Virus record (IMG/VR): IMGVR_UViG_2534681774_000020
Span: 1-11,326 of that record
Source: a virus
Lineage: Duplodnaviria > Heunggongvirae > Uroviricota > Caudoviricetes
Reading direction: 5' to 3' (one strand)
DNA: 11,326 bases
Shown: positions 1-11,326 of the stretch, piece by piece
How positions within the stretch are numbered: the first letter of the stretch is position 1
How the letters are laid out: the number at the start of each line of letters is the position of its first letter
Program-made: the position numbers and the translations under genes
Notes under the pieces: model-generated
Databases searched by the model: none
The model's input: the letters and a program-made list of their open reading frames with translations, nothing else
What the model was told of the DNA's origin: nothing

Positions 1-445
1 CTTCAAAGAAGCGCTGTTCTTCTTCAAGATCACCTACGATTTGAGAAAAAACCCTATTTTTAAGGCTTTTCTTTATGATTTTGTCGTATTTTTTTAGCAA
101 TTGTTCACGTGTAAATGTACGTGTTGTTGTAGCGCTTTGCACAACGACATGCGTGCTTTGATTGGTGTCCTCAATGATGAATGGGATCGGAGAATATACA
201 GACTCAACAATGTTCGACGCTTTGCCGTCGGCATCGCGGCACATGTCAACGAAGGCTTTCCATTCAGCAAGACATTTTTCAGCTTCTTCTAATATGTTTT
301 GGTCATGCGTTAATGCAACATGGCGGAATTCCTCGCCAGCATAACTGGTATCATGGAAAACAGAGTTTGCGACCACCAGCTCTTTCCACCGTTCAGCGGT
401 TTGCAGGAACCGTTTGTACTCTTTCTCGATCGACTTCTTACTCAT
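1..445 (-). CDS. Partial CDS running off the window start (at least 148 aa in window, C-terminus missing); hypothetical protein, divergent from dre. N-terminus MSKKSIEKEYKRFLQTAERWKELVVANSVFHDTSYAGEEF...
   Basis: Manual translation of the minus strand from ATG (rc of cat at 443-445) is stop-free to position 1 with balanced composition. AGGA lies just upstream of the ATG. Absent from the ORF track, presumably because no in-window stop. Function not recognised. Confidence 0.6.
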   Translation of the reverse strand, partial: MSKKSIEKEYKRFLQTAERWKELVVANSVFHDTSYAGEEFRHVALTHDQNILEEAEKCLAEWKAFVDMCRDADGKASNIVESVYSPIPFIIEDTNQSTHVVVQSATTTRTFTREQLLKKYDKIIKKSLKNRVFSQIVGDLEEEQRFFE

Positions 446-654
446 TATTCCTACTCGATTTAGTTTTCTAACATAAAATTACTATGACAAATTTATGTCG
501 AATAACAGAGTGAGTAAAGGATCGAACTGTGATTTTTTGTCATCAATTTTAGAAAACCAACCGTAGAAACCACACTTCGCAAATTAAAGACCATGAAGGC
601 AACGTGTTACTGGTCATCATCAATCTATGATGGATTAAAAAAATCGGCATTTTA

Positions 655-686
655 TAACTTTAAATAATTGGCATTATTTAAAGTTA
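655..686. other. rox: rox-type site-specific recombination target: 14-bp perfect inverted arms around a 4-bp core, TAACTTTAAATAAT-TGGC-ATTATTTAAAGTTA
   Basis: Perfect inverted repeat seen directly. It is the reverse complement of the rox site of phage D6 as I recall it (TAACTTTAAATAATGCCAATTATTTAAAGTTA). Lies about 150 bp upstream of the Cre-family recombinase gene, the same arrangement as loxP and cre in P1. Confidence 0.85.
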
Positions 687-695
687 GGCTATAAT
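668..695 (+). promoter_or_regulatory. Putative sigma70 promoter for dre: -35 TTGGCA (668-673) inside the rox site, 16-bp spacer, -10 TATAAT (690-695)
   Basis: Hexamers read directly; perfect -10 and 5/6 -35 with 16-bp spacing. The overlap with the recombination site suggests autoregulation. Not experimentally anchored. Confidence 0.35.
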
Positions 696-838
696 CATGG
701 GTAGATGATCAGTATTGACATCACTCAAAATACGCGCCTCGAATCAAAGGCTTGAATCTTGAAAATTAACTTATAGCTACCCTGTCATTTTTATATTTTT
801 CGCGTAGCGTCATCTGTATATAGAGGTTAAATAGTTTC

Positions 839-1867
839 ATGAGTGAATTAATTATCTCTGGCAGTTCCGGTGGTTTTCTGCGCAACATTGGCAAAGAGTA
901 CCAGGAAGCCGCAGAAAACTTTATGCGGTTCATGAATGACCAGGGAGCTTATGCGCCGAATACTCTGCGCGACCTCCGTTTGGTGTTTCATTCCTGGGCG
1001 CGCTGGTGTCACGCTCGCCAGCTTGCCTGGTTTCCGATCTCACCAGAAATGGCCCGCGAGTATTTTCTTCAGCTGCATGATGCCGATCTGGCTTCGACCA
1101 CCATTGATAAGCACTACGCCATGCTGAACATGCTGCTTTCGCATTGTGGCCTTCCGCCACTTTCGGATGATAAAAGTGTTTCTCTGGCTATGCGGCGCAT
1201 CCGGCGCGAAGCGGCAACTGAAAAAGGCGAACGAACAGGCCAGGCTATACCGCTGCGGTGGGACGATCTGAAACTGCTCGACGTCCTGTTGTCCAGGTCA
1301 GAACGGCTGGTGGACCTGCGCAACCGGGCTTTTCTCTTTGTTGCATACAATACGCTGATGCGTATGTCGGAAATCTCGCGTATTCGTGTAGGAGATCTGG
1401 ACCAAACAGGTGACACTGTCACGCTACATATTTCACACACGAAGACAATAACGACCGCCGCCGGGCTTGATAAGGTGCTTTCCCGTCGCACTACCGCTGT
1501 GCTGAATGACTGGCTGGATGTTTCCGGGCTTCGCGAACATCCTGACGCAGTGCTGTTCCCGCCGATACACCGTAGCAATAAGGCCAGGATCACGACAACG
1601 CCCCTTACTGCACCTGCAATGGAGAAAATATTCAGCGACGCCTGGGTGTTGCTGAATAAAAGAGATGCTACGCCAAACAAAGGAAGATACCGGACGTGGA
1701 CCGGGCATAGTGCACGCGTCGGGGCCGCTATTGATATGGCTGAAAAGCAGGTGTCTATGGTGGAGATCATGCAGGAAGGAACCTGGAAGAAACCGGAAAC
1801 ACTTATGCGGTATCTTCGCCGTGGCGGCGTGTCTGTGGGGGCTAATAGCCGCCTGATGGATTCGTAA
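839..1867 (+). CDS. dre: Cre-family tyrosine site-specific recombinase, recognised as Dre (D6-type, rox-specific)
   Basis: 342-aa ORF whose N-terminus (MSELIISGSSGGFLRNIGKEYQEAAENFMRFMNDQGAYAPNTL) matches Dre as I remember it. Alignable to P1 Cre along its length (e.g. LAFLFVAYNTLMRMSEISRIRVGDL vs Cre LAFLGIAYNTLLRIAEIARIRVKDI; WTGHSARVGAAIDMA vs WSGHSARVGAARDMA). Exact rox site upstream. Confidence 0.95.
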   Translation: MSELIISGSSGGFLRNIGKEYQEAAENFMRFMNDQGAYAPNTLRDLRLVFHSWARWCHARQLAWFPISPEMAREYFLQLHDADLASTTIDKHYAMLNMLLSHCGLPPLSDDKSVSLAMRRIRREAATEKGERTGQAIPLRWDDLKLLDVLLSRSERLVDLRNRAFLFVAYNTLMRMSEISRIRVGDLDQTGDTVTLHISHTKTITTAAGLDKVLSRRTTAVLNDWLDVSGLREHPDAVLFPPIHRSNKARITTTPLTAPAMEKIFSDAWVLLNKRDATPNKGRYRTWTGHSARVGAAIDMAEKQVSMVEIMQEGTWKKPETLMRYLRRGGVSVGANSRLMDS

Positions 1868-1940
1868 ATTAAATTTCTAACACATCTTTTTAGATTAACG
1901 CCTTTGCTGTAAAGTACCCTCGCCTATTTAGGAGGGTGCT

Positions 1941-2285
1941 TTGCAGAGTAAAATCACGGAATCAAGACGCTTCAAGGTGGATGGTTACACCGTAACCTTC
2001 GCCGCTGGTGTTAAGAACAGTCATGCTGTCGTTGTGTTCGGCATCATGACCGGGCTTGAGGCCGTCCCTGTGTTTACCCTCGAAAAAAACTGGCGAAATC
2101 TGGAGGAAGCAGAAAGCTACGTCCGGAAAGTAACCATCATTGCCGCCGAAAAACTCCTGGCCCACTATCAGGAAAATTATCGCACTATGGTCGAGAAGAT
2201 TAATCTCGCTTTCACTCGCCCCACTACCGGCTTTATTGCACCGGATACTAATGCAGGTCGCTATCCTGCAAGGGGGCGTCGGTGA
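1941..2285 (+). CDS. Hypothetical protein, 114 aa, TTG start
   Basis: ORF with a strong Shine-Dalgarno GGAGGG at 1931-1936, 4 nt before the TTG start. First gene of the operon after dre. No recognisable motifs. Confidence 0.55.
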   Translation: MQSKITESRRFKVDGYTVTFAAGVKNSHAVVVFGIMTGLEAVPVFTLEKNWRNLEEAESYVRKVTIIAAEKLLAHYQENYRTMVEKINLAFTRPTTGFIAPDTNAGRYPARGRR

Positions 2286-2758
2286 AGACTTATTACACAT
2301 CTCTGAATTGTTACCCGTCTTCCTATCCAGAATTGTCCGGGAAGCTGTTAGCTCTATTAGCTAAAGCACCTACGGAATGGTTTAAGCCAGTCATTATCAA
2401 TCCACACTTCCTGGATTACGGATCTGTTCGCACTCGTAACGAACTCAAAAACCTACTGGCGCATGGATTCATTCGACACCGTGCCGGGAAAGGCTATCAG
2501 TTAGCGATTGCGCCAGAAGAGGCCGTGCGGCTATTCGCATATCGTGACAGCCAGACAAAAGCTCGGGTAATAGCTCAAATACTTCATAACGGCAGCACCT
2601 ATGCCCGCCAGTTTGGTGGCGACACGTCGCAGTTCTTGCGGGCGGTGCGATCGCTGGAGGAGCAAGGAGTTATTGAAAGTTCCTGTCTTCCTGTTCCTAC
2701 CGTTCCACATATCAAACGTCGGGTTTACACCTTCACGCAGAGAGCTAAAAAACAATGA
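2282..2758 (+). CDS. Hypothetical protein, 158 aa, possible winged-helix DNA-binding fold (inference)
   Basis: GTG start overlaps the upstream stop (GTGA at 2282-2285), with AGGGGG Shine-Dalgarno 5 nt upstream. The C-terminal segment ...SQFLRAVRSLEEQGVIES resembles a recognition helix plus wing. Function inferred only. Confidence 0.6.
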   Translation: MKTYYTSLNCYPSSYPELSGKLLALLAKAPTEWFKPVIINPHFLDYGSVRTRNELKNLLAHGFIRHRAGKGYQLAIAPEEAVRLFAYRDSQTKARVIAQILHNGSTYARQFGGDTSQFLRAVRSLEEQGVIESSCLPVPTVPHIKRRVYTFTQRAKKQ

Positions 2759-3249
2759 TTTACGTAAAAGTGAAACGCCTACATCCGGCAGCAAAACTTC
2801 CAGCTTATGCCACCTCCGGATCGGCGGCGATGGATTTTGAGGCTGTTGAAATAAAACCATGTGTCGATAGCAATGGTGCAATTTCCTCAAGCTGGTGGGT
2901 GTACACCGGACTGGCTATGGAGATCCCGCCCGGCTGGTGTCTAAAACTCTATCCGCGTTCCGGATTGGGCTGCAAAAAACATACTCGCCTGGCTAACTGC
3001 GTAGGAATTATCGACTCCGATTATCGCGGTGAAATCATGGCAAAACTGATTACTGATCCCGGCGGGGAAGGCGTTTGTCTCAAGCCTGGAATGGCTGTCA
3101 TGCAAGGAATTTTTGAGCGTGTTGAACAAGTCTCACTAGTCGAGGTTGAGGAACTCAACGAAACGGAACGTGGTGCCGGTGGCTTTGGTAGCACATCGGA
3201 AGACCGCGTTGAAATCAAGCGTACACCGCTTCAGTACGCAAAGTTTTAA
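2755..3249 (+). CDS. dut: dUTP diphosphatase (trimeric dUTPase)
   Basis: ATGA start/stop overlap with the upstream gene. Canonical dUTPase motifs are present: PRSGLG (motif II), GIIDSDYRGE (motif III), RGAGGFGSTS (motif V), and an AAMDFEA motif-I-like segment. Confidence 0.9.
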   Translation: MIYVKVKRLHPAAKLPAYATSGSAAMDFEAVEIKPCVDSNGAISSSWWVYTGLAMEIPPGWCLKLYPRSGLGCKKHTRLANCVGIIDSDYRGEIMAKLITDPGGEGVCLKPGMAVMQGIFERVEQVSLVEVEELNETERGAGGFGSTSEDRVEIKRTPLQYAKF

Positions 3250-3263
3250 GTAGAGGAAGGATT

Positions 3264-3926
3264 ATGGTCAGCACTTTTCAGGTGTTCCCCAAATACAAAT
3301 GCCACAGCATCATTCGGGCATCGAAAATCAAAGATATTGTTATTGTCGGCAAAGCTTATGCGCCCATTTTTGGCAGTATCGAAGTCGTTGAGCCAAAAGG
3401 AATGACGCTTCGTGTTGATGGTGTGTTCTTGGAAAAATTCCGACCGCAAATAGGAGGATATCTCGTCACTGCTGAAAATGGCTATCTGGTCTATGTGCCA
3501 GAGAAAGCATTTGAAAAATGCTATAGCCGGGTTAACGACGCCTCCGAAAATGGGGTATCGCTCAGCATTGAAGGTCACAATGGGGTGACATTCATTACAG
3601 CCAGGGACGTAACTATTTCTGCTGGCGGTATCGCTACTCTACAAGAAGAAATCGACCTTGAAGCAGCCGACTTTTCTGACGCGCTGATGTGGCTGAAGGA
3701 TGGCAAGAAAGTTGCCCGGCGCGGGTGGAACGGCGAAAACCAATTCTGCTGGCTGGTTCCTGAAGGACAGTACCCGGCACGAATGGAAGCCATTAAGGGA
3801 TATTTCCCCGGCGATCTCGTTCCGTATGGTGCTTATTTCGCCTTAAAAAATGCACAAGGTGTAGTTGTTCCGTGGTTGCCTTCTGTAGGCGACTTACTGG
3901 CATGTGACTGGTTTGTAGTGGAGTGA
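3264..3926 (+). CDS. Two-domain protein, 220 aa: unknown N-terminal domain (about 135 aa) fused to a C-terminal DUF2829 (Tad2-like) domain
   Basis: Strong Shine-Dalgarno (GAGGAAGGA) before the ATG. The C-terminal 85 aa (ALMWLKDGKKVARRGWNGENQFCWLVPEG...VPWLPSVGDLLACDWFVVE) carries the DUF2829 hallmarks as I recall them (GKK..RRGWNG, VPW, DLLA.DW..VE). Domain assignment is from memory. Confidence 0.75.
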   Translation: MVSTFQVFPKYKCHSIIRASKIKDIVIVGKAYAPIFGSIEVVEPKGMTLRVDGVFLEKFRPQIGGYLVTAENGYLVYVPEKAFEKCYSRVNDASENGVSLSIEGHNGVTFITARDVTISAGGIATLQEEIDLEAADFSDALMWLKDGKKVARRGWNGENQFCWLVPEGQYPARMEAIKGYFPGDLVPYGAYFALKNAQGVVVPWLPSVGDLLACDWFVVE

Positions 3927-3932
3927 TTTAAC

Positions 3933-4733
3933 GTGGAAAATACTAAAGCAATTCAATACCGCTTGCGTAATGGCCTGCTGGTGGCTGTTAACGCCGACAT
4001 GTCACTGCCGTTTGACACGATTGAACGTACTATCATGACGTATCTCGGCTTTAATGAAGAGCTGAATGAAGAGCATGGCGTAGCTATATGGAGTGATGCA
4101 GAAAGCGGCGTTCATCGTTACATCACCGCCAGGGGCAAAGACTACTCTCTGGAAGAACTGTTTACCCTTGCACAGTCTTTCGAATGTGTAGCATTAGACA
4201 TGTTTAATGATCCTGCTATAGCGCAACGACTTATACGCGAGCTTGGGCTATCCGTTACACCAATTATCTTTAAGAATGGCAGCCTGACTGGCACATGGCG
4301 CGTAGAACGCATCTCAAACTACCTTCCATATAACCGACAGTTAAATGGAGTAATCTCCGGCGTTAATCAGCCCGTAGCGTGTGAAAATGTAAACCTGGTT
4401 GCCGCTGTTTTGGCAACCGCATGTCGTGTTATCGGTTTGGCTAAACAGGCATTTATTCATTTCCCAAATGGTGCAGAAGGTAGCGCAGAGATTATCGCGT
4501 GTGATTTCGAATTTACCTGGATGCTACGCGAATATCTGGACCAAACAGTATTCCGTGCCGAAGAACTGGATATGTATATCACGTCAACGATTCCAGACGA
4601 TGTGCGAGCTGAAGCAATCGCTACAGCCAGGGCGAAATGCCGTGCGGCGATTGCAGAGCAGGCCAAAGAAGAACCGTCCGATGAAGCCGTGGCTGATGTT
4701 GAAGCAGAGGTAGCGGAGGATGCTGACGCCTAA
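3933..4733 (+). CDS. Hypothetical protein, 266 aa, with a poly-acidic C-terminal tail (EEPSDEAVADVEAEVAEDADA)
   Basis: GTG start 7 nt after the upstream stop, with GGAG 9 nt upstream. Last gene of the plus-strand cargo operon, followed by an intrinsic terminator. No recognisable catalytic motifs. Confidence 0.7.
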   Translation: MENTKAIQYRLRNGLLVAVNADMSLPFDTIERTIMTYLGFNEELNEEHGVAIWSDAESGVHRYITARGKDYSLEELFTLAQSFECVALDMFNDPAIAQRLIRELGLSVTPIIFKNGSLTGTWRVERISNYLPYNRQLNGVISGVNQPVACENVNLVAAVLATACRVIGLAKQAFIHFPNGAEGSAEIIACDFEFTWMLREYLDQTVFRAEELDMYITSTIPDDVRAEAIATARAKCRAAIAEQAKEEPSDEAVADVEAEVAEDADA

Positions 4734-4788: not shown

Positions 4789-4818
4789 AAGCCCGCCTGG
4801 TTGAGCGGGCTTCTTTTC
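4789..4818. terminator. Rho-independent terminator (8-bp GC-rich stem AAGCCCGC/GCGGGCTT, 8-nt loop, then CTTTTC) between the convergent cargo operon and doc
   Basis: Hairpin and T-tract read directly. Positioned 56 bp after the stop of the 266-aa gene and overlapping the doc stop codon. The T-run is short, so it is probably stronger for the plus-strand transcript. Confidence 0.55.
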
Positions 4819-5197
4819 AAATATTGGAACCAAATAATTCACGTAGTTTTTCCGCTACTGAAGATACGGGGATTTCACCAGTTGCGGCCCCCACCGCAAG
4901 TTCCACCAGCACGGGAGAATCATATACCTGTATACCGTTACGGCGTAGAAATAGCAGCGCACTGTTTAGCGCGGTACGCTTATTGGCATCATTGAATATA
5001 TGCCCTCTCGCAGTAGCCACCAGGTAGGTTGCGGAGACTTCGAAAAGGTCGGTAATCTCTTCGTACACAACTCTGGCCTGGACTCTCCCGATAATGGCCT
5101 CTGCCCTGCCCGGATCTGACATGCCAGGCAGGCCGCCGTAGCGGTTTATATTCGCATCATGAAGCGCAATAAGTTCTTCCGGTGATATATGCCTCAT
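4817..5197 (-). CDS. doc: Doc toxin (death on curing; Fic-family protein) of the P1-type phd-doc addiction module
   Basis: 126-aa ORF that matches P1 Doc as I recall it ([22 protein letters not shown]...). Its ATG overlaps the phd stop by 1 nt (TAATG), as in P1. Confidence 0.95.
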
Positions 5198-5418
5198 TAT
5201 CGGTTAACCAGTTCCTTGTTGGTGGAGTCCAGGGTGTCAAACAGGGATGCAAATTCAGCATCCAGCGCCGCTTTTTTGTAGGCTTCGAAAGTAGCCTTGC
5301 TGACAATTACTGCTGGCTCACGGCCTCTGCGGGTGATTTCAACCTCTTCCCCGGCTTCAACATTGTTGAGCACTTCAGAAAGGTTGCCACGCGCGGTACG
5401 GAAGTTAATGGATTGCAT
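5197..5418 (-). CDS. phd: Phd antitoxin (prevent host death), 73 aa
   Basis: Sequence [73 protein letters not shown] matches P1 Phd from memory. The true start is the ATG at 5416-5418 (GAGG 6 nt upstream), not the GTG used in the ORF track. Confidence 0.95.
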
Positions 5419-5426
5419 AAACACCT

Positions 5427-5450
5427 CGTGTACTCGTTATGTGTACACAA
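5427..5450. promoter_or_regulatory. phd-doc operator: two Phd-binding palindromes (GTGTACTC imperfect at 5428-5435, TGTGTACACA perfect at 5440-5449) just upstream of phd
   Basis: Palindromes read directly. They match the GTGTACAC-type subsites described for the P1 phd-doc autoregulated promoter (established knowledge, recalled from the literature). Confidence 0.6.
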
Positions 5451-5490
5451 CTATAAACTTCACAGGCATAAAGCACCAGCACTTTGCAGC

Positions 5491-5880
5491 TTAAATAACC
5501 GGACAATCATCAAATTCCCCACTTCGGGCATCATTGATGACATGAGTGATCACACCAAAAACAGCATTACTGCCCGTGTATCCATCGTCATCTACTGGTA
5601 ACGCCTCTTTCTTCCCGGTGCTTAAATCCTCCAGGTGCTGGCGCGGATACTTCCTGTATCTCTTTATGCGATATTCACCCTCCATAGCGCACACAAGCAG
5701 AGAACCCTCAACCGGAGTAAGCGAGGAATCAACCACCAGCAAAGCACCCTGCAATATTCCCTCACGGTGATGGCTATCAGCTGCCCGCATGAAGTAGGTT
5801 GCTGATGGATGCCTGATTAGTTGCTGATCAAGAGAAATTCGGCTTTCAACATAATCCGCCGCAGGAGAAGGGAAGCCCAT
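5491..5880 (-). CDS. humD: HumD, UmuD'-like translesion-synthesis accessory protein (S24 peptidase fold, pre-processed form)
   Basis: 129-aa ORF beginning [12 protein letters not shown]...HPSATYF, which aligns with E. coli UmuD from the Cys24-Gly25 cleavage site onward (UmuD: [29 protein letters not shown]). Same humD-phd-doc neighbourhood as in P1. Confidence 0.9.
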   Translation of the reverse strand: [129 protein letters not shown]

Positions 5881-5898
5881 AGCGTTTTACCTCAATGA

Positions 5899-5918
5899 TA
5901 CTGTTTATTCATACAGCA
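5899..5918. promoter_or_regulatory. LexA (SOS) box TACTGTTTATTCATACAGCA upstream of humD
   Basis: CTGT-N8-ACAG architecture, 16/20 match to the consensus TACTGTATATATATACAGTA. Lies 19-38 bp upstream of the humD start codon. Confidence 0.6.
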
Positions 5919-6003
5919 TACATTGAAAAGGCATAGTTTGTGAAAGCGGGGTTTGTAGGCGCGCCACGCTGGGGGCTAATCACATTTCTCCCCCATCTTG
6001 CCG

Positions 6004-6255
6004 TTATTTTTTTGGTGCATCCTCGTTCTGATACACCGGATCGCTCCCTTTTGGCAACTGGAGGCTTAACTGCCGGTAGTGCCGTAGCCGTTCCATGAAA
6101 TAGGCGCGCAGGTTTTCCGGTTGCTCACGGGCCACCTGCTCTGCAATCACAGGTATATTCAGCCGTTCTTTGTAAGCAACGCCGCTGGCGGCAAGGTCTA
6201 CGTTCACCTTGTCTCGCTCTTCCTGGCTTTTAGCTGCTATATTTCGATCTGACAC
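6004..6255 (-). CDS. Hypothetical protein, 83 aa (GTG start), function unknown
   Basis: ORF with a GGAGG Shine-Dalgarno 6 nt upstream of the GTG start. Hydrophilic, protein-like composition. Sits immediately upstream of the humD promoter region. Not recognised. Confidence 0.55.

Positions 6256-10384: not shown

Positions 10385-11326
<942 letters not shown>

What the first reader, a model, noticed from the sequence alone, without database searches (positions are those of the whole stretch)
654..695. Exact rox-type recombination site with a promoter inside it, directly upstream of a Dre-type recombinase
A perfect 14-4-14 inverted repeat (TAACTTTAAATAAT TGGC ATTATTTAAAGTTA) lies about 150 bp upstream of a Cre-family recombinase. 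It is heterospecific to loxP: the arms share only ATAACTT and ATA with loxP arms. A -35-like TTGGCA sits in the core and inner arm, and a perfect TATAAT lies 16 bp downstream, so recombinase binding should occlude its own promoter. This is a complete recombinase-plus-target module, probably used for plasmid dimer resolution or cyclisation in a phage-plasmid.
Basis: partly seen in the sequence, partly recalled or inferred. Interest (0 to 1): 0.5.

Follow-up and report, generated by a model that had tools for sequence, protein, structure and literature searches.

The report
Known Dre/rox module of D6-like phage-plasmid
This is the already characterised Dre recombinase and its 32-bp rox target from a phage D6-type plasmid prophage of E. 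coli; the only part not in the annotation or the papers I could read is a conserved promoter-like signal that overlaps the site.

Summary
Window 655-686 is a perfect 14-4-14 inverted repeat and is the exact reverse complement of the published rox site. It lies 152 bp upstream of ORF 839-1867, whose product is 100% identical (342/342 aa) to Dre of phage D6. The window is a D6-like P1-family phage-plasmid: c1 repressor, rox, dre, orf2, orf3, dut, then phd/doc and humD. It is 98% identical to the D6 immC record over 1-3063. The module occurs in 124 of 5,426 complete E. coli genomes, almost always on plasmids. The core finding is therefore already known (Sauer and McDermott 2004), and Dre/rox is a standard genome-engineering tool.

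The promoter-like signal is real as sequence: TTGGCA (668-673), 16 bp, TATAAT (690-695), 11 of 12 matches. It is the only match of at least 10/12 in the window on either strand. The TATAAT is invariant 3 bp from rox in 24 distinct relatives (70-100% aa identity) although its flanks vary. The -35 changes with natural spacer variants, and a second conserved block sits nearer dre. P1 annotates no cre promoter inside lox. Self-repression of dre by Dre bound at rox is plausible but untested.

The parts
655..686 (.). rox, the 32-bp crossover site of Dre. Left arm 655-668, asymmetric spacer TGGC 669-672, right arm 673-686. It is in the opposite orientation to the form usually printed (spacer GCCA).
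   Evidence: Perfect inverted repeat; single copy in the window; identical to published rox; annotated as the rox site at the same relative position in AY753669 and MF356679.
668..695 (+). Candidate sigma-70 promoter pointing at dre: -35 TTGGCA 668-673 (last base of the left arm, the spacer, first base of the right arm), 16-bp spacer that includes the rest of the right arm (674-686), -10 TATAAT 690-695. The predicted start is near 701-703.
   Evidence: 11/12 consensus match; unique in the window at 10/12 or better, and 1.3% chance in the intergenic region; TATAAT is the only invariant run of 4 nt or more between 687 and 780 in 24 distinct Dre-clade sequences. No transcript evidence.
839..1867 (+). 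dre, a Cre-like tyrosine recombinase of 342 aa.
   Evidence: 100% identical to D6 Dre; E 5e-69 to Cre crystal-structure chains; 42% identity to Cre; Pfam Phage_integrase 62.6 bits against a cut-off of 27.1; catalytic R175 K202 H290 R293 W316 Y325 present.
782..810 (+). Conserved proximal block: CTGTCA (782-787), 17 nt, TAGCGT (805-810). It is a weak-consensus candidate second promoter or a protein-binding site. A GAGG ribosome-binding site follows at 824-827.
   Evidence: Invariant runs CCTGTCA, TTTTTC, CGTAGC and TATAGA across 24 Dre-clade sequences. The ATTTCGCGTAGCG block is shared with P1 upstream of cra. The 56%-identity clade has TAGAAT at the -10 position. Only 7/12 to consensus (my count).
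714..719 (+). Perfect TTGACA hexamer with no convincing -10 partner. The best is TCGAAT 18 nt downstream, which lacks the A at position 2.
   Evidence: Conserved with variable flanks in the clades at 89-100% identity and also in L109/L110, but not in L107. It was not reported by the promoter scan.
1..445 (-). 5' part of c1 (phage repressor), transcribed away from rox; context only.
   Evidence: Collinear with c1 (3661-4698, minus strand) of AY753669.

Best explanation
The window carries the Dre/rox site-specific recombination module of a phage D6-type plasmid prophage, a P1 relative, of E. coli. Dre is a Cre-like tyrosine recombinase. By analogy with Cre on loxP, two monomers would bind the two 14-bp arms of rox, two occupied sites would synapse, and strands would be exchanged within the asymmetric 4-bp spacer. 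No accessory protein is needed. Published work on these identical sequences shows the recombination and its independence from Cre/loxP. By analogy with Cre/lox in P1, the natural roles would be circularising the terminally redundant infecting DNA and resolving plasmid dimers before partition; this is inferred. In addition, rox overlaps a near-consensus promoter reading into dre. With a start near 702, rox spans roughly -47 to -16. Dre bound to rox should therefore exclude RNA polymerase and hold its own synthesis low. This last step is inferred from geometry and conservation only.
For: Identity: the site is identical to rox and the protein is identical to Dre. The c1-rox-dre-orf2-orf3-dut order matches the D6 immC record, which annotates the site as the crossover site for Dre. 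The full D6 genome record is numbered from the centre of rox. The catalytic residues are present, and homology to Cre structures is strong. The module is found in 124 of 5,426 complete E. coli genomes, with 124 of 127 places on plasmids.

Activity and heterospecificity: reported for these sequences in papers citing Sauer and McDermott 2004 (PMC4777119; PMC4957104).

Natural use of the site: sequences left and right of the rox centre reassort among related contigs, and a left-arm variant travels with one left-flank type.

Promoter: an 11/12 match that is unique in the window. TATAAT is invariant 3 bp from rox in 24 distinct relatives down to 70% protein identity, while the 3 bp between and the 16 bp after it vary. 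In the distant Pantoea-type clade, a promoter-like signal also sits at a fixed position against the right arm of the site.
Against: There are no transcription, footprint or recombination data for this window. The -35 is not conserved where the rox spacer varies naturally: GGGG in L093, TGGA in L103, TAGC in L107. The clade at 56% identity has a rox-like site but no TATAAT. A second conserved block close to dre (782-810) could be the working promoter. P1 annotates four cre promoters and none has a hexamer inside lox, so the arrangement is not a family rule. The biological roles (cyclisation, dimer resolution) are carried over from P1 and, as far as I could check, have not been shown for D6.
Confidence: 0.97

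Rival explanations
1. This is rox/Dre, but the promoter-like signal is not the dre promoter. In this view dre is transcribed from the conserved proximal block (782-810) or from upstream read-through, as with P4cre in P1. The TATAAT next to rox would be conserved for another reason, such as DNA flexibility or an unrecognised protein contact during recombination.
For: The proximal blocks CCTGTCA and CGTAGC are as invariant as TATAAT and are partly shared with P1. The -35 of the rox promoter is lost in natural spacer variants. The 56%-identity clade lacks the TATAAT but has TAGAAT at the proximal -10 position. P1 places its cre promoters outside lox.
Against: The proximal block matches the consensus poorly (7/12, my count) and was not found by the scan. 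The rox-overlapping signal scores 11/12 with a perfect -10, and it is the only conserved hexamer in the otherwise variable 687-780 stretch. Cre-type enzymes are not known to need bases 4-9 bp outside the arm (my knowledge of Cre-loxP structures).
Confidence: 0.35
2. The promoter is active but is not meaningfully controlled by Dre, for example because Dre occupancy of a single rox site is too transient or too low. It would then be a constitutive promoter that happens to abut the site.
For: There is no evidence of repression. The natural spacer variants change the -35, which suggests that promoter strength is not tightly tuned to the site.
Against: The whole right arm lies between the -35 and the -10, so simultaneous binding of Dre and RNA polymerase is sterically implausible (geometry). 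In the Pantoea-type clade, too, the best promoter-like match has its -35 at the outer end of the right arm in 27 of 51 distinct loci.
Confidence: 0.2
3. The palindrome is an operator for a transcription factor, such as the C1 repressor, rather than a recombination site.
For: It is a perfect palindrome in an immunity-region intergenic space next to c1.
Against: The sequence is identical to the experimentally defined Dre target. The window contains no match to the P1 C1-operator consensus.
Confidence: 0.01

Closest known systems
Dre/rox of Escherichia phage D6 (Sauer and McDermott 2004; GenBank AY753669, MF356679)
   Same: The 32-bp site is identical and the 342-aa recombinase is identical. The spacing (152 bp) and the gene order c1-rox-dre-orf2-orf3-dut are the same.
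   Different: The window is not D6 itself. It is 98% identical at the DNA level over 1-3063, with 13 substitutions and one 1-nt indel in the aligned 430-850 stretch. It is mosaic further right and carries an IS21-family element at its right end.
Cre/loxP of phage P1
   Same: Same enzyme family and fold-level homology (E 5e-69, 42% identity). Both have a simple inverted-repeat site, and 10 of 13 arm positions are shared. Both sit beside the c1 immunity region. A short regulatory block (ATTTCGCGTAGCG plus the ribosome-binding site) is shared.
   Different: The site is 14-4-14 rather than 13-8-13, and no loxP is present in the window. The two systems are heterospecific (literature). P1 has cra and 434 bp between lox and cre, a LexA-controlled leftward promoter next to lox, and four annotated cre promoters, none with a hexamer inside lox.
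Panto/pox (Pantoea sp. aB; Karimova et al. 2016, PMC4957104)
   Same: Cre-like enzyme with a rox-like site, and Panto and Dre each recombine both pox and rox. The Pantoea-type loci retrieved here, which I did not compare with Panto itself, have 14-4-14 sites close to rox upstream of the gene.
   Different: Only 41-47% identity to Dre. The promoter-like signal lies about 21 bp further right, with the -35 at the outer end of the right arm, among GGATCC Dam sites.
Recombinases that repress their own promoter through their recombination site (Tn3/gamma-delta resolvase at res; TnpI of Tn5401) - recalled from my own knowledge, not checked here
   Same: The recombinase binding site overlaps the core promoter of the recombinase gene, giving negative autoregulation. 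This is the mechanism proposed here for the rox promoter.
   Different: Those systems have multi-subsite accessory architecture and experimentally shown repression. Here the site is a minimal two-arm site and repression is untested.

Membership tests
Dre/rox system of phage D6 | 32-bp rox sequence (14-bp inverted arms, 4-bp spacer GCCA/TGGC) | tested here: met
   Window 655-686 is the exact reverse complement of published rox and is identical to the annotated site in AY753669.
Dre/rox system of phage D6 | Recombinase sequence is Dre | tested here: met
   342/342 identical to AY753669 dre.
Dre/rox system of phage D6 | Genomic setting: next to c1 in a P1-like plasmid prophage | tested here: met
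   c1 (minus strand) - rox - dre - orf2 - orf3 - dut order. Best matches are E. coli plasmids of about 90 kb.
Dre/rox system of phage D6 | Dre recombines rox x rox and not loxP | not testable with these tools
   Taken from the literature for identical sequences (PMC4777119; PMC4957104). The primary paper (PMC534624) is not held.
Cre-like tyrosine recombinases | Catalytic R-K-H-R-W-Y set | tested here: met
   R175, K202, H290, R293, W316 and Y325 are present. The positions agree with those given for Dre in PMC4777119.
Cre-like tyrosine recombinases | Full-length homology to Cre; Pfam Phage_integrase domain | tested here: met
   E 5e-69 over residues 22-341 to Cre chains; PF00589 62.6 bits against a cut-off of 27.1.
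Cre/loxP of P1 (as a member, not just a relative) | loxP 13-8-13 site | tested here: not met
   No loxP in the window with up to 3 mismatches. Only 42% identity to Cre.
Sigma-70 promoter | -35 and -10 hexamers with 16-18 bp spacing | tested here: met
   TTGGCA-16-TATAAT, 11/12; unique in the window.
Sigma-70 promoter | Mapped transcription start or reporter activity | not testable with these tools
   No data. No paper in the searchable library links rox to promoter activity.
Sigma-70 promoter | Conservation of the hexamers among relatives | tested here: inconclusive
   The -10 is invariant in 24 of 24 Dre-clade sequences with variable flanks. The -35 is degraded in three natural spacer variants, and both hexamers are absent in the 56%-identity clade.
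Self-repressing recombinase (site overlaps own promoter) | Binding site overlaps the core promoter | tested here: met
   All but the first base (673, in the -35) of the right arm 673-686 lies between the -35 and -10, and the spacer lies within the -35.
Self-repressing recombinase (site overlaps own promoter) | Recombinase lowers transcription of its own gene | not testable with these tools
   Needs a reporter assay with and without Dre.

The most novel reading that the evidence does not exclude
The natural rox site doubles as the core of the dre promoter. The -35 straddles the crossover spacer, the right arm fills the promoter spacer, and a conserved TATAAT lies 3 bp outside. Dre would then repress its own synthesis whenever rox is occupied. 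This is a minimal two-arm version of the res/resolvase logic and is not annotated for Cre/lox in P1. A related placement of the promoter against the site in Pantoea-type relatives would make coupling of site and promoter a recurring feature of this branch of Cre-like systems. I could not read the 2004 primary paper, so it may already mention the promoter.
Probability: 0.4. Interest if true: 0.3.

Novelty: already known. Interest (0 to 1): 0.15.

Why it matters
The module itself adds nothing new. Dre/rox has been characterised since 2004 and is widely used alongside Cre/loxP in mice, zebrafish, cell lines and bacteria. There are two modest points of value. First, a bacterial promoter that overlaps rox would matter to people who place rox sites in constructs propagated or expressed in bacteria, because a rox site followed by a -10-like sequence could drive unintended transcription. 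It would also explain how the phage keeps a potentially genotoxic recombinase at a low level. Second, the natural rox variants (spacer and arm) and the reassorted flanks seen in related contigs are a small catalogue of sites that function in nature.

Tried and rejected
I tried to read the primary paper (Sauer and McDermott 2004: DOI, then PMC534624), the P1 genome paper (PMC523184) and the D6 genome paper (my guess PMC5800970). None is held. I therefore could not check whether the promoter was already noted.

Literature searches for promoter activity of rox or loxP in bacteria gave nothing relevant.

I looked for the P1 C1-operator consensus near rox to test C1 control of dre. There is none in the window with up to 3 mismatches. 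The repeated GTTTTCTAACAT motif upstream of c1 is no more frequent than chance.

I tested for a structured leader RNA between the predicted start and dre. The fold is no better than shuffles (z = 0.36), and Rfam gives no hit in the window.

The hairpin at 736-751, terminator-like on the minus strand, is not conserved in D6, so I treated it as chance.

I considered the conserved TTGACA at 714-719 as a second promoter. I set it aside because no acceptable -10 follows at 16-18 bp.

The operator-only reading of the palindrome was rejected because of its identity to the defined Dre target.

Full report
**Observation**

Window 655-686 reads TAACTTTAAATAAT TGGC ATTATTTAAAGTTA. The two 14-nt arms are 100% complementary, with 4 nt between them. 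The 32-mer occurs once in the window, and none of 200 shuffles contains it even with three mismatches allowed. TTGGCA lies at 668-673 and TATAAT at 690-695, 16 nt apart. The ATG of the 342-codon ORF 839-1867 is 152 bp from the end of the repeat.

**Identity**

- The site is the exact reverse complement of the rox sequence printed in the literature, TAACTTTAAATAATGCCAATTATTTAAAGTTA (PMC4777119; checked).
- A megablast of the window against phage records finds Escherichia phage D6. The 7.6-kb D6 immC record AY753669 matches window 1-3063 at 98.0%.
- That record annotates a "region of crossover (rox) site for Dre recombinase" and the dre gene in the same relative positions. It is flanked by c1 on the opposite strand and by orf2, orf3 and dut downstream.
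- An alignment of the c1-dre intergenic region shows rox and its surroundings unchanged. There are 13 substitutions and one 1-nt indel over the aligned 430-850 stretch.
- The ORF product is 342/342 identical to Dre.
- It matches Cre crystal-structure chains at E = 5e-69 over residues 22-341 and is 42% identical to Cre.
- It carries R175, K202, H290, R293, W316 and Y325. These include the active-site positions listed for Dre in PMC4777119.
- It passes the Pfam Phage_integrase cut-off.
- The complete D6 genome record is numbered from the centre of rox, as P1 is numbered from lox.

**Setting**

The window is not D6 itself but a D6-like plasmid prophage.

- The best plasmid matches are E. coli replicons of about 90 kb, at 95-98% identity, with mosaic coverage.
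- The rox-dre segment occurs in 124 of 5,426 complete E. coli genomes, and 124 of its 127 places are on plasmids.
- Downstream of dre on the + strand lie two unknown ORFs, a dUTPase, a protein with a Tad2-like domain, and a 266-aa ORF.
- Then, on the - strand, come doc/phd, an S24 peptidase (humD), a Pol III theta homologue, a 538-aa ORF, two Ead/Ea22-like genes and an IS21-family IstB.

**Mechanism: what is shown and what is inferred**

Published work on sequences identical to these reports three things:
- Dre recombines rox sites without other phage or host factors.
- Dre shows no cross-reaction with Cre/loxP (PMC4777119).
- Dre cross-reacts with the related pox site (PMC4957104).

I could not read the 2004 primary paper. 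The natural roles, circularisation of infecting DNA and resolution of plasmid dimers, are carried over from P1 Cre/lox. This rests on homology and synteny and is an inference.

Some natural evidence suggests that exchange happens at rox. Among 35 related viral contigs, the 400 bp left and the 400 bp right of the rox centre reassort:
- L081 is 82% identical to the window on the left and 100% on the right.
- L085-L089 are 100% identical on the left and 94% on the right.
- The left-arm variant TAACTTTAGATAAT travels with one left-flank type.

General mosaicism could produce the same pattern.

**The promoter-like signal**

TTGGCA-16-TATAAT scores 11/12. It is the only match of at least 10/12 in the whole window on either strand. 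A match of at least 11/12 appears on the + strand in 1.3% of 5000 shuffles of the intergenic region.

Comparative evidence favours the -10. I compared 24 distinct upstream sequences from Dre relatives of 70-100% protein identity. In these, TATAAT is invariant at 3 bp from rox. The three bases between rox and the hexamer vary (GGC, AGC, GTA, TCA, GGT), and so do the following 16 bases. TATAAT is the only invariant run of four or more bases between 687 and 780.

The -35 is less secure because it is built from the recombination spacer. Natural spacer variants reduce it to 3-4 of 6 matches: GGGG in L093, TGGA in L103 and TAGC in L107. The clade at 56% identity has a rox-like site (TAACTTTATATAAT GTCA GTTATATAAAGTTA) but no TATAAT.

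If transcription starts near 702, rox spans about -47 to -16, and the bulk of the right arm (674-686) lies between the two hexamers. Dre and RNA polymerase should then exclude each other. This is an argument from geometry, not a result.

**Other candidate signals upstream of dre**

- A perfect TTGACA at 714-719 is conserved in most clades but has no acceptable -10.
- A proximal block (CCTGTCA 781-787, CGTAGC 803-808, TATAGA 819-824) is as invariant as TATAAT.
- Part of that proximal block, ATTTCGCGTAGCG plus the AGAGGT.AAA ribosome-binding region, is shared with P1 upstream of cra.
- Read as a promoter (CTGTCA-17-TAGCGT), the block is weak: 7/12 by my count.
- The predicted 137-nt leader has no unusual structure (z = 0.36), and no Rfam family matches anywhere in the window.

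**Comparison with P1**

The P1 record annotates P1cre, P2cre and P3cre between lox and cre. It also annotates P4cre just left of lox, under the C1 operator Oc1e, and a LexA-controlled leftward promoter (P2coi) just right of lox. No annotated hexamer lies inside lox.

The D6 type lacks cra and the P2coi/LexA segment. It has no P1-type C1 operator in the window. The overlap of site and promoter is therefore a D6-type feature rather than a family rule.

**Comparison with distant relatives**

A scan of one genome per species found 74 loci at 41-47% identity, mostly in Pantoea, Mixta, Rahnella and Erwinia.

- Fifty-two of these loci have a symmetric 14-4-14 site within 450 bp upstream.
- In 27 of the 51 distinct sequences, the best promoter-like match begins at site positions 29-32. 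This puts the -35 on the outer end of the right arm. The -10 (TATCAT, TATGAT or TAAGAT) lies about 22 bp right of the site, often among GGATCC Dam sites.
- The scores are modest (8-10 of 12).
- The fixed position nevertheless suggests that placing the recombinase promoter against its site recurs in this branch, at a different register from the D6 type.

**Verdict**

The finding is a correct recognition of a known system, Dre/rox of a D6-like phage-plasmid. Novelty is "already known" and interest is low. The residual open point is whether the rox-overlapping promoter is functional and self-repressed. It is not annotated in either D6 record. It is absent from the searchable literature. I could not check the primary paper. 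I put the probability that the promoter is active and repressed by Dre at about 0.4. If true, it would be a tidy but minor addition.

Noticed in passing
window 3264-3926 (+): A 220-aa protein with a Pfam Tad2-like (Thoeris anti-defence 2-like) domain, E 2.1e-22, sits in the rightward gene string after dre-orf2-orf3-dut. It is a possible anti-defence gene on the phage-plasmid.
   Followed up: no
window 10385-11326; IstB ORF 10444-11226 (-): An IS21-family IstB ATPase (E 7.7e-112). Homology to D6-like plasmids stops near 10388, and a 99.9% match to Yersinia phage records begins at 10385. An insertion-sequence end therefore lies at about 10385-10388.
   Followed up: partly
L076-L107 (IMG/VR contigs), 400 bp either side of the rox centre: Left and right flanks of rox reassort among relatives: L081 is 82% left and 100% right to the window, and L085-L089 are 100% left and 94% right. 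The left-arm variant TAACTTTAGATAAT co-occurs with the left-flank type TTCCTAAATTTC. This is consistent with natural exchange at or near rox.
   Followed up: partly
L093, L103, L107, L109, L110 (site about 152 bp upstream of the recombinase gene): Natural rox variants occur: spacer GGGG (L093), spacer TGGA with a G at the first base of the right arm (L103), and spacer TAGC (L107, 70% identity enzyme). The 56%-identity enzymes have a distinct site, TAACTTTATATAAT GTCA GTTATATAAAGTTA.
   Followed up: no
L064, L010, L026, L038, L041, L050, L063, L071 (Pantoea and relatives), upstream of the recombinase gene: These have 14-4-14 sites whose arms contain the loxP arm core AACTTCGTATA, for example TAACTTCGTATAAT TATA CTTATACGAAGTTA in L064. 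Of these, the four enzymes I compared (L064, L010, L026, L038) are only 43-47% identical to both Cre and Dre. Whether Cre acts on such sites was not examined.
   Followed up: no
L021, L022, L029-L031, L036, L046, L048, L057 and others, 1-60 bp right of the pox-like site: Two or three GGATCC (Dam) sites bracket the promoter-like signal next to the site in many Pantoea-type loci. This recalls the Dam sites annotated in the P1 cre regulatory region. The window has a single GATC in 600-840, at 707-710.
   Followed up: no
window 797-830 and L111 (P1) 163-206: The block ATTTCGCGTAGCG and the AGAGGT.AAA ribosome-binding region are shared between the dre leader and the region upstream of P1 cra. The D6 type has no cra gene and lacks the P2coi/LexA-box segment next to lox.
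   Followed up: partly
window 460-474 and 546-560: An imperfect inverted repeat (TTAGTTTTCTAACAT / ATTTTAGAAAACCAA, 87%) lies upstream of c1. It may be an operator pair for the D6-type repressor, but the motif count is no higher than chance, and the P1 C1-operator consensus is absent from the window.
   Followed up: partly
window 4817-6255 (-): A P1-type accessory set is present: doc toxin (Fic/DOC), phd antitoxin, the S24 peptidase humD, and a DNA polymerase III theta homologue.
   Followed up: no
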